Below are positions 29,779 through 31,651 of a stretch of 64,000 nt of DNA, one piece after another. The notes under the pieces were generated by a model. That model did no database searches. It was not told the DNA's origin and saw only the letters and a list, made by a program, of their open reading frames with translations. Position 1 is the first letter of the stretch. Each line of letters starts with the position of its first letter. The DNA lies in NCBI GenBank assembly GCA_951406725.2, contig OX597818.1:107508001-107572000 (forward strand), given 5' to 3'. Origin of the DNA: Octopus vulgaris. Taxonomy: Eukaryota. A program made the position numbers and the translations under genes.

Positions 29779-30174
29779 ATATATTACTCAAAGAAATTCC
29801 ACCTATGACTTCCACGTGTTATTTACAATCTTATAATAATATAATAGAAGATAATATAATATAATGAAATGATAGAATTTCAAATGTCCATTCTGACTGA
29901 ACTAGTACTTTCATTGCATTAAATTATGCAATCTTCAGGCTCATATAGTAGTGATGACAGTAATTTTTTTACAAATTTACAACAGTTGTAAACTGTAAAG
30001 CATAACTGTCACCACTGCTACATGGACCTGAAGATTGCATAGTTTAATGCATGAAAGTACTAGTTCAATCAGAATGGACATTTAATATTCTATCATTTCA
30101 TTATATTATATTATTATAAGATTGTAAACAAAACATGAAAATCAGACAAAGATTAAATTTCTTTGAGTAATATA
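29779..30174. mobile_element. Fold-back element with an HHR motif on each arm
   Basis: Arms mirror around about 29983. Minus 29899-29942: GAGC-CUGAAGA-UUGCAU..AUGCAAU-GAAA-GUAC-UA-GUUC. Plus 30024-30066: GGAC-CUGAAGA-UUGCAU..AUGCAU-GAAA-GUAC-UA-GUUC. Confidence 0.8.
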
Positions 30175-30386
30175 TATATCCCTCATCGTTTGTTTTTACT
30201 GTTTTGTCCTCATTGTTCTGTCCTTTCCTGTTTTTACTTTTTTATTGTTTTTTCGTTGTTTGAAAAAAAGCTTGTTTCTATGTTTTTGTTTTCATGTTTT
30301 TCGTTTCTCATTGTGTTCAACGTTTTATTGACTGTATATATACATATATATGTAGGTATGTACATATATGTATGTATATATGCATA

Positions 30387-30447
<61 letters not shown>

Positions 30448-30451
<4 letters not shown>

Positions 30452-30625
30452 GGAATTAACAAGAAAAACAAAACAAAAGACGAAGGCAGGTGTGCAAACA
30501 ACAAACAGATGTATTAGTTTAATGCTCGGGAAGGTGAGAAAGTCTTTTATGTTTCGAGCCCATGCTCTTCAACAGAGAGGAACACAAATAAACAGAGAGC
30601 GAAAATAGAAAAGGTTTTGTGCAGG
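30448..30625 (-). mobile_element. Solo 3' end of the Neptune-type PLE family with HHR-like motif (30543-30580)
   Basis: Minus strand CUGUUGA-A-GAGC(AUGG)GCUC-GAAA-CA-UA-AAAGA; abuts (TA)n. Confidence 0.75.
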
Positions 30626-30687
30626 TAATAATCTAGTAGCTCTGCATTGGTACAACTTGGAAAAATATAGAAAAAAAGTGAAAACGG

Positions 30688-30885
30688 TACTTGCAACGAG
30701 GAGTAGAATATCCAATGTTTCAGATTCAATCCTTCGTCAGATGGCAGAGAAAAAGAGAAGAAAAAAAGAGAAAAAAGTCAAACAGAGTTTTTCAAGCTGA
30801 GATTGTTCGACTTTTTCTCTTTTTCTTCTCTTTTTCTCTGCCCCCTGACGAAGGATTGAATCTGAAGCTCCTCACAGCAAGTTCA
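30688..30885. mobile_element. Fold-back element with CUGACGA HHR-like motif on both arms
   Basis: Minus 30712-30744: CUGACGA-A-GGAU(UGA)AUCU-GAAA-CA-UU-GG. Plus 30845-30866: same motif, truncated. Purine and pyrimidine arms mirror each other. Confidence 0.65.
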
Positions 30886-30889
30886 CTGT

Positions 30890-31172
30890 ACTCCTATTGT
30901 TATGTATGGTGAGAGTCATTCTCTTTTAGTGTCTTATAATTTACCACACACACCAGTAAAATTTCCACTTATTTCTTTTTTACTTTTCTAAAATTTTCGT
31001 TGCGTCTTGCAACCTTTCCAATAGTTTTGACTCTCAAAACTATTGAAAAGGTTGCAAAACACAATGAAAATTTAAGAAAAACAAAAAAGAAACAAGTGGA
31101 AATTTTACTGGTGAGTGTGGTAAATTAAAAGGCACCAAAAGAGAATGACTCTTCCCAGACATAACGGAATAT
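30890..31172. mobile_element. Fold-back element with UUGAAGA-type HHR-like motif on both arms
   Basis: Arms mirror around about 31032. Consensus from both arms plus a solo copy at 50900-51025(-): CUA-UUGAAGA-G-GUUGC(AAGAC)GCAAC-GAAA-AU-UU-UAG. Confidence 0.65.
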
Positions 31173-31225
31173 GCTTCAAGCACACAAATTCACATAAAGA
31201 ATCTTGCAAACCAAATCCAATAAGG

Positions 31226-31257
<32 letters not shown>

Positions 31258-31411
31258 TTCAGCAAAATAATTTAGATTCAAATGAATATGGTACTTAACT
31301 TAGATGCACCAGAATTTTTTATGGTATTACCCATAAAATTATGTGGGGTAATTATAACCAAAAAATAAGCAACAAGAATTACCGGATCCATTCTTGTTGC
31401 TTATTTTTCTG

Positions 31412-31447
<36 letters not shown>

Positions 31448-31564
31448 ATGTATGTATGTATGTATGTATGTATACATATATGTGTATATATATATATGTG
31501 AGTGTGTATATATATATATATATATATACACACACAAAAGTTACGAATTGGAGTAGATAAAATC

Positions 31565-31651
31565 TAAACCACATATGTTTCATAGTAAGTGGAACCTCAG
31601 AAGTGGTAATATCCAAGTGAGGTGTACACAACCTGCTACTCTTCAGGCCAA
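31565..31651 (-). ncRNA. HHR-like motif with long stem II, probably decayed
   Basis: UUGGC-CUGAAGA-GUAG...ACCUCA..UGAGGU...CUAU-GAAA-C-AUAU-G-UG-GUUUA; palindromic CAUAUG; G at the cleavage position is non-canonical. Confidence 0.55.

What the first reader, a model, noticed from the sequence alone, without database searches (positions are those of the whole stretch)
29779..31651. Two-kb hotspot of back-to-back ribozyme fold-backs
Five different HHR families, eight motif copies in total, are packed between (TA)n tracts. They comprise three fold-backs with a motif on each arm (29779-30174, 30688-30885, 30890-31172), a Neptune solo end, and a long-stem motif at 31565-31651. A further hairpin lies at 31354-31416. 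Transcription in either direction would meet ribozyme motifs, and each fold-back would pair with, and possibly inhibit, its own HHR. Inference: repeated PLE targeting of the same site with 5' inversion, or a distinct class of palindromic non-autonomous elements.
Basis: partly seen in the sequence, partly recalled or inferred. Interest (0 to 1): 0.75.

Follow-up and report, generated by a model that had tools for sequence, protein, structure and literature searches.

The report
Pile-up of Penelope retrotransposon fold-back ends
Six unrelated repeats, three of them traced to protein-coding Penelope-type jumping genes, lie side by side in a TA-rich 2-kb patch; their mirror-image shape is likely a by-product of copying one short RNA from both cut ends of the target, most of their ribozyme motifs are damaged, and a cluster this dense is expected now and then by chance in this genome.

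Summary
The fold-backs and hammerhead-type motifs are real, and there are six repeat families, not five. Only two of the eight motifs (both in 29779-30175) pass a whole-motif scan, and they lack the usual G10.1-C11.1 pair. Three families run upstream into reverse-transcriptase or GIY-YIG frames, so they are 3' ends of Penelope-like elements. In position-ordered samples symmetric fold-backs are a minority (11 of 70, 3 of 27, 1 of 30) beside linear, solo and lopsided copies, so this is not a separate palindromic class. The centre is still preferred: 52 of 53 truncated copies of the 30895 family stop within four bases of one site, probably the transcription start. Exactly one arm has the tail (30 of 31), often the shorter arm (14 of 20); arms share private variants; the centre lies in either orientation. 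This favours two primings on one RNA over simple hairpin self-priming. Four fold-backs in 1.9 kb is rare (about 0.3% of 64-kb windows) but expected about 90 times genome-wide. No expression or cleavage data. The scan reported this kind of insertion several times elsewhere in this genome.

The parts
29754..30178 (.). Fold-back 1: head-to-head 3' ends of a Penelope-like family; centre at 29984; tail (29754-29778) on the left arm only
   Evidence: family runs upstream into RT and GIY-YIG frames
29895..29943 (-). Minimal type I hammerhead motif, left arm of fold-back 1 (core starts 29938); no G10.1-C11.1 pair
30023..30067 (+). Minimal type I hammerhead motif, right arm of fold-back 1 (core starts 30028); U opposite U at the base of stem II, as in the family majority
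30181..30332 (.). T-rich stretch, unassigned; no match in the loci held
30335..30448 (.). (TA)n tract
30449..30622 (-). Solo truncated end of an abundant repeat with a minimal hammerhead motif at 30552-30575 (U at core position 6, loop III palindrome broken); Penelope-like by anatomy, link to a protein not tested
30623..30894 (.). Fold-back 2: lopsided inversion joined near 30786-30790; tail on the left arm; motifs at 30718-30740(-, stem I broken) and 30845-30867(+, about 13 bases with the cleavage site deleted)
   Evidence: upstream frames similar to the fold-back 1 protein
30895..31222 (.). Fold-back 3: symmetric, centre 31029-31035, tail (about 31172-31222) on the right arm only; candidate U3-A8 minimal motifs at about 30986-31021(-, A6G) and 31043-31077(+, stems I and II damaged)
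   Evidence: family runs upstream into a GIY-YIG frame
31226..31257 (.). (TA)n tract
31258..31416 (-). Sixth family: lopsided inversion with 27-bp arms and a long tail; truncated downstream of the family's long-stem hammerhead motif
31413..31528 (.). (TA)n / (TATG)n tract
31530..31724 (-). Solo end with long-stem-II hammerhead motif at 31578-31646; G at the cleavage position where 19 of 19 other copies have A; starts near the family's preferred 5' end

Best explanation
The 2 kb hold six separate repeat insertions, likely all 3' ends of Penelope-like retrotransposons that landed one after another in a TA-rich target, and each fold-back is likely the product of one insertion in which the element's enzyme primed two cDNAs on the same short RNA, one from each cut strand of the target. 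Shown: family membership, mixed copy shapes, a preferred 5' end, one tail per insertion, concordant arms, either orientation of the centre. Inferred: the promoter in the element's terminal repeat makes a short RNA (start site, hammerhead motif, tail); one cDNA starts at the tail end and the other at the inner start site; each runs towards the RNA 5' end and stops at or before it; the two 3' ends join by microhomology. If both reach the 5' end, the result is a symmetric fold-back centred on the transcription start, and the one to three unpaired central bases are resolved either way. A short snap-back of a cDNA end may help the join. The copies here are old and passive, with motifs damaged or sequestered.
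For: RT (RVT_1, E 5e-4, below cut-off) and GIY-YIG (E 5e-6, above cut-off) in consecutive frames upstream of the fold-back 1 family; GIY-YIG (E 3e-4, just below cut-off) for fold-back 3; blastp links for fold-back 2 (E 2e-21, 8e-6). Position-ordered fold-back 3 sample, 70 of 495 exact matches: 17 linear, 17 solo, 20 lopsided, 11 symmetric, 5 inverted with an insert; 52 of 53 non-linear copies share at most 4 bases with the linear upstream sequence, 26 exactly 3, against about 8% expected from the truncation rate in the arm. Fold-back 1 family: 11 of 11 (window's subfamily) and 12 of 13 (young subfamily) non-linear copies stop likewise. TATA-like word 30 bases upstream of that site and CCAAT-like words further up in the fold-back 1 family, TATA-like word 27-34 bases upstream in the long-stem family. 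One tail per inversion in 30 of 31; the short arm bears it in 14 of 20, which copying of the long tail-less arm cannot give. Arms agree at four non-CpG diagnostic sites in 34 of 36, 36 of 38, 24 of 28, 35 of 40 copies (expected 24.7, 27.9, 14.0, 21.0) and share private variants 5 and 8 times against 0.17 and 0 in shuffles. Centre orientation 12 to 14 and 10 to 12. G before the start site in 10 of 20 solo or lopsided copies where 16 of 17 linear copies have C. In vitro, a Penelope-like protein cuts and extends both strands and starts at two sites that bound the tail (PMC11167929).
Against: The transcription start is inferred from DNA only. The fold-back 3 family has no TATA word at -30. The extra G is ambiguous in several copies (microhomology with the other arm; 4 of 8 solos, one of them with a short palindrome). 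Some copies carry only a short palindrome of about 9-24 bases across the centre (L147, L151, L178, L195, L245, L247, L251, L265), which two plain cDNAs do not explain and which needs snap-back or a fold-back template. Shared arm variants could also come from later gene conversion; one non-CpG site is only weakly concordant (24 of 37, expected 19.0). The sets used for concordance and centre orientation were the best matches to whole fold-backs, so they are biased. Three of six families were not traced to a protein.
Confidence: 0.7

Rival explanations
1. The symmetric fold-backs are self-propagating palindromic non-autonomous elements: the whole hairpin is transcribed and copied by a Penelope-like enzyme in trans, which keeps the centre fixed.
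For: Whole fold-backs with the same centre recur (most of the 40 scored candidates; centres). Short palindromes across the centre in about 4 of 53 and 4 of 14 non-linear loci. The fold-back 3 family has an AGACG word at +28 to +32, like a downstream promoter element (consensus recalled; Penelope of D. virilis has an internal promoter, PMC2377424), so its stubs could keep a promoter. 53 of 70 copies of that family are non-linear.
Against: Symmetric copies are 11 of 70, 3 of 27 and 1 of 30. Arms are homogeneous within copies rather than carrying inherited left-right differences. In the fold-back 1 and long-stem families the promoter words lie upstream of the centre and are lost. The pieces across the centre are all short, as snap-back would give.
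Confidence: 0.12
2. Each fold-back comes from one cDNA that folds back on itself at the RNA 5' end and copies itself (hairpin self-priming, close to the proposal in PMC3846280).
For: Arm concordance and shared private variants; short palindromes at the centre; self-priming was proposed for head-to-head palindromes of rotifer Penelope elements.
Against: In 14 of 20 lopsided inversions the short arm has the tail and the long arm lacks it, and some short arms are almost only tail (L142, L196, L202, L210); both outer ends are fixed while the inner ends vary. It could be a helper step, not the whole route.
Confidence: 0.12
3. The site is a true insertion hotspot or a selected array with a host function (double-stranded or small RNA source, transcription barrier).
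For: 4 fold-backs in 1.9 kb against 0.2 expected, P 6e-5 per bin; three elements abut with no spacer; 7 of 13 other-family neighbours in family loci lie within 600 bp of the centre.
Against: About 91 such bins are expected genome-wide and about 2.6 among 1250 windows. Family loci show no general co-clustering (13 observed, 10.0 expected, P 0.21). The patch is TA-rich (85 against 30 bases per kb) and 10 of 14 random family copies lie near (TA)n against 23% of random intervals. The junction of fold-backs 2 and 3 is not found elsewhere (39 of 39 other scored matches cover one side only). Motifs are decaying and arms have drifted 5-12% apart.
Confidence: 0.05

Closest known systems
Insertion units of endonuclease-positive Penelope-like elements: pLTR, adjacent inverted 5'-truncated copy, optional 30-40 bp tail, (TA)n targets (Craig et al. 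2021, PMC8557442, passages seen; Arkhipova et al. 2013, PMC3846280, passages seen)
   Same: Head-to-head inverted ends, tail on one end only, microsatellite targets, C-terminal GIY-YIG after RT, short palindromes at the junction.
   Different: Here the units are cut down to the terminal repeat alone, with a sharply preferred inner end; tails are about 25, 50 and 95 bases; six families are adjacent.
Minimal type I hammerhead motifs of metazoan Penelope-like elements (Cervera and de la Pena 2014, PMC4209133, parts 1-2 of 4 read)
   Same: Palindromic loop III, extra base after position 9, U3-A8 core variant; that paper already reports pairs of motifs 100-700 bp apart on opposite strands and no detectable cleavage of a single motif.
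   Different: The fold-back 1 family has U opposite U where G10.1-C11.1 is highly conserved; the solo family mostly has U at position 6; two families have long stems II.
Poseidon element of Anolis, in vitro (Frangieh et al. 2024, PMC11167929, parts 1-2 of 4 read)
   Same: Both target strands cut and extended, two internal start sites bounding the tail, AT-rich target, hammerhead not needed for insertion.
   Different: The parts read do not deal with how the two cDNAs are joined or with a fixed inner end; clade of the families here not determined.
Twin priming of LINE-1 (recalled, not read here)
   Same: Two primings on one RNA give a 5' inversion joined by microhomology.
   Different: LINE-1 inversions have little overlap; here the two cDNAs overlap from none to fully, giving palindromes.
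Metazoan non-LTR retrozymes (bioRxiv 10.64898/2026.07.22.740005, part 1 of 5 read; PMC7229834, search listing only)
   Same: Small non-coding hammerhead-bearing repeats related to pLTRs.
   Different: Retrozymes are head-to-tail tandems; these are head-to-head or solo, and three have protein-coding parents.

Membership tests
EN+ Penelope-like element (fold-back 1 family) | RT followed by C-terminal GIY-YIG endonuclease | tested here: met
   L391: RVT_1 E 5e-4 (below cut-off), YLDD motif, GIY-YIG E 5e-6 in consecutive frames split by one stop; L392 has both in one frame
EN+ Penelope-like element (fold-back 3 family) | RT followed by C-terminal GIY-YIG endonuclease | tested here: inconclusive
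   GIY-YIG E 3e-4 (21.6 bits, cut-off 22.6) upstream in L148/L393; no RT frame of 150 aa recovered
EN+ Penelope-like element (fold-back 2 family) | RT followed by C-terminal GIY-YIG endonuclease | tested here: inconclusive
   No Pfam hit; two frames in L394 match the fold-back 1 protein by blastp, E 2e-21 and 8e-6
EN+ Penelope-like element (solo, hairpin and long-stem families) | RT and GIY-YIG frame upstream | not tested
   Only anatomy seen: fixed 3' end at (TA)n, 5' truncation, inversions, hammerhead motif
EN+ Penelope-like element | Inverted 5'-truncated copy and a tail on one end | tested here: met
   30 of 31 inversions of the fold-back 3 family have one tail; same layout in L391 with 1089-bp arms
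EN+ Penelope-like element | Preference for AT-rich or (TA)n targets | tested here: met
   10 of 14 family copies in 400 kb of random DNA near (TA)5+, against 23% of random intervals
EN+ Penelope-like element | Direct tandem pLTRs flanking a full-length ORF | not tested
   No full-length copy was recovered among the six stretches fetched
Neptune clade | RT phylogeny and Zn-finger-like linker | not tested
   Cys-rich linkers are visible in L254 and L148; no tree built; the solo end has no protein link here
Minimal type I hammerhead ribozyme | Intact core, stems I and II, palindromic loop III, UH site | tested here: inconclusive
   2 of 8 window motifs pass a relaxed descriptor; 6 are damaged
Minimal type I hammerhead ribozyme | G10.1-C11.1 pair | tested here: not met
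   Not met for the two fold-back 1 motifs or their family majority; met in the fold-back 3 family majority and the solo end
Minimal type I hammerhead ribozyme | Self-cleavage | not testable with these tools
   No assay
Distinct palindromic non-autonomous class | Most copies are whole palindromes with one centre | tested here: not met
   11 of 70, 3 of 27, 1 of 30 symmetric
Non-LTR retrozyme | Head-to-tail tandem units each with a hammerhead | tested here: not met
   No such tandem in the region; parents encode protein

The most novel reading that the evidence does not exclude
Stubs of the 30895 family keep an internal promoter, so solo and fold-back copies seed new insertions by themselves: a protein-less, palindrome-forming offshoot of Penelope-like elements, copied by double priming, whose centre records the capped RNA start and flips like a hairpin end.
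Probability: 0.12. Interest if true: 0.6.

Novelty: new member of a known kind. Interest (0 to 1): 0.27.

Why it matters
As a locus it is ordinary retrotransposon debris. The family statistics matter more: how Penelope-like elements make their inverted ends is still open, and these copies give countable marks (one tail per insertion, tail often on the short arm, both arms from one template, inner end at one site, centre in either orientation) that separate double priming from self-priming and predict the transcription start of each family to the base. They also warn that such palindromes can be mistaken for MITEs or regulatory switches in repeat annotation.

Tried and rejected
Rfam: no match in the window. 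The first core scan missed the fold-back 1 motifs because of the U.U at the base of stem II; a relaxed descriptor found them. A second candidate motif in fold-back 3 (near 31108-31155) was dropped: the family majority differs at core positions 4 and 6 and the G12 position varies. Whole-fold-back searches score only the 40 best candidates and overstate symmetry, so they were replaced by single-arm and pattern samples. A composite element of fold-backs 2 and 3 was sought and not found. Expression: no RNA holder listed; laying four runs of contigs gave only other family copies, no piece spanning the locus, so neither expression nor presence in relatives could be judged. The tail classes for the fold-back 1 family are unreliable (AT-rich alignments) and were not used. 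The private-variant count for the old fold-back 1 subfamily failed with a script error. No host gene was identified: 17 of 49 long frames scanned, one Pfam hit. Paper searches listed no paper on a palindromic non-autonomous Penelope class or on centres marking the transcription start; supplements were not read and may bear on this.

Full report
Setting. The window is G000:C5:107508001-107572000 in a 2.8-Gb genome, rich in microsatellites. It looks like an octopus genome; that label is recalled and also appears in earlier notes of the scan, and no call of mine established it.

Observation. Local alignment confirms three fold-backs and a hairpin: arms 29779-29973/29994-30175 (157 of 178 identical), 30719-30784/30804-30866 (60 of 63), 30895-31030/31034-31171 (121 of 136) and 31353-31379/31390-31416 (25 of 27). 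Against good family copies the second insertion spans 30623-30894. Each piece belongs to an abundant family: 1432, 185, 3369, 1077 and 1815 first-look candidates for fold-backs 1, 2, 3, the hairpin piece and the long-stem piece, and the solo end has three more copies in this window. So there are six families. The solo end, fold-back 2 and fold-back 3 abut directly; the others are parted by (TA)n tracts.

Motif audit. Rfam finds nothing. A descriptor for minimal type I hammerheads finds 14 motifs in 400 kb of random DNA against 1 in the reversed control, and passes two in the region, 29938(-) and 30028(+). Both belong to fold-back 1 and lack the G10.1-C11.1 pair; the family majority has U opposite U there, whereas Cervera and de la Pena call that pair highly conserved (PMC4209133). 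The solo motif has U at position 6, as most of its family, and a broken loop III palindrome. In fold-back 2 the left motif has lost stem I and the right one has lost about 13 bases with the cleavage site. The fold-back 3 family has a candidate U3-A8 motif with a 3-bp stem I (variant described in PMC4209133); the window's left copy has G at position 6 and the right copy has damaged stems. The long-stem motif has G at the cleavage position where 19 of 19 other copies have A. For fold-back 1, predicted stem probabilities are 0.62-1.0 for the motif alone, 0.04-0.48 in a whole arm, and 0.00 in the fold-back or a nascent read-through.

Parents. [quoted passage not shown] The fold-back 3 family runs into a GIY-YIG frame (E 3e-4). 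Fold-back 2 frames match the fold-back 1 protein (E 2e-21 and 8e-6) without a Pfam hit. L391 is a 3.7-kb insertion of the fold-back 1 family with 1089-bp inverted arms, 97.9% identical, tail on the short arm: the same layout at larger scale. Inverted 5'-truncated copies, a tail at one end and (TA)n targets are described for the group (PMC8557442; PMC3846280), and so are motif pairs 100-700 bp apart on opposite strands.

Do fold-backs recur as units? Searches with the whole fold-back return many full palindromes with the same centre, but they score only the 40 best candidates. Pattern searches list matches in order of position. For fold-back 3, 70 of the first 71 listed among 495 exact matches give 17 linear, 17 solo, 20 lopsided, 11 symmetric and 5 inverted with an insert. 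For the window's fold-back 1 subfamily, 30 of 34 matches give 19 linear, 7 solo, 3 lopsided, 1 symmetric. For a young subfamily, 27 insertions (30 loci less 3 duplicates, of 414 matches) give 14 linear, 6 solo, 3 symmetric (one only a 19-base palindrome), 2 lopsided, 2 with insert. Fold-back 2 junctions vary from copy to copy. A separate palindromic class is not supported.

Why the centre recurs. Of 53 non-linear fold-back 3 copies, 52 share at most four bases with the linear upstream sequence and 26 exactly three. The pattern forces copies to reach that neighbourhood, so I took the truncation rate from single-arm hits (18 of 29 end between +7 and +67, about 1.6% per base): about 8% should stop in five bases, 74% do (P 5e-42). 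The same holds for 11 of 11 and 12 of 13 fold-back 1 copies. Thirty bases upstream of that site the fold-back 1 family has TATTTAA, with CCAAT-like words beyond; the long-stem family has TTTATATA at -34 to -27 of a common 5' end. The fold-back 3 family has no TATA word but AGACG at +28 to +32 (downstream-element consensus recalled; internal promoter shown for D. virilis Penelope, PMC2377424, abstract and passages). A G precedes the site in 10 of 20 solo or lopsided copies where 16 of 17 linear copies have C, as copying of a cap would give, though microhomology could supply some. I infer that the site is the transcription start. This is not shown.

How the arms are made. One arm carries the tail in 30 of 31 inversions, and in 14 of 20 lopsided ones it is the short arm; some short arms are little more than the tail. 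A hairpin copy of the long, tail-less arm cannot produce them, so both arms were primed from RNA. The arms of a copy agree at four non-CpG diagnostic sites far above expectation, less so at a fifth, and not at CpG sites; they share private variants 5 times (shuffles 0.17) and 8 times (0): mostly one template per insertion, or later conversion. With the tail to the right, centres read in one orientation 12 times and in the other 14 times (14 of 40 other forms), and 10 to 12 (6 of 28 other). Several joints keep both full ends with one or two extra bases (L049, L147, L171). This fits the in vitro result that a Penelope-like protein cuts and extends both strands from two start sites that bound the tail (PMC11167929). 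Against a pure two-cDNA picture, about eight copies carry only a short palindrome across the centre, which needs a snap-back step or a fold-back template; this keeps the self-propagation reading alive at low odds.

Is it a hotspot? Forty 10-kb stretches taken at round-number places hold 43 fold-backs of any kind, spread as Poisson (2-kb bins: 161, 35, 4), and one stretch has three in 1.9 kb. Four in 1.9 kb has P 6e-5 per bin, about 0.3% per 64-kb window, 1.6% given the 12 in this window, about 91 expected in the genome and 2.6 in 1250 windows. Copies of the other families are not enriched around family loci (13 against 10.0, P 0.21), though 7 of the 13 lie within 600 bp; the patch has 85 (TA)n bases per kb against 30, and 10 of 14 random copies sit near (TA)n against 23% of random intervals. 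The junction of fold-backs 2 and 3 was not found elsewhere. The cluster is a real local excess that needs no more than shared target preference and a wide search. The direct abutment of three families is unexplained.

Verdict. New members of a known kind. My reading was set down before the look-up of earlier notes; eight such notes on other DNA of this genome reach much the same view and are not independent support. Interest 0.27: the locus is ordinary, while the family counts offer testable marks of the insertion route.

Noticed in passing
window 30449-31222: Three families abut with 0-1 bases between them; fold-back 2 lacks the last 10-20 bases of its usual right end while the left end of fold-back 3 is whole. 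Nested insertion with loss of target, or template jumping between different RNAs.
   Followed up: partly
window 5776-6005, 13542-13780, 22336-22503, 42226-42338, 43693-43889, 53412-53524, 59022-59203: Further local fold-backs; 59022-59203 is a lopsided inversion of the solo family.
   Followed up: no
window 32158-32639: Inverted pair of a SINE-like repeat (label recalled), 163 of 192 identical, 95 bases apart.
   Followed up: no
window 33429-33460 (+), 2661-2734 (-), 13086 (+): More hammerhead cores; 2661-2734 has a 15-bp stem II.
   Followed up: no
window 57449-57829 (-): DDE_3 transposase fragment, E 1e-6.
   Followed up: no
window 11257-12627 (+); 16253-16788: A 456-aa stop-free frame without Pfam hit; a 180-bp unit repeated three times at 97%.
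   Followed up: no
L391:3649-7394: Young 3.7-kb Penelope-like insertion with 1089-bp inverted arms, 97.9% identical, tail on the short arm.
   Followed up: partly
L342, L347-L350: The hairpin family has a long-stem hammerhead motif upstream of the part present in the window, and many of its inversions join at a GGATCC word.
   Followed up: partly
L248:98-781 (-): A 228-aa frame with a cysteine pattern like interleukin-17 (resemblance recalled, not tested) next to a Penelope-like copy.
   Followed up: no
window 30181-30332: T-rich stretch between fold-back 1 and the (TA)n tract with no match in any locus held.
   Followed up: partly
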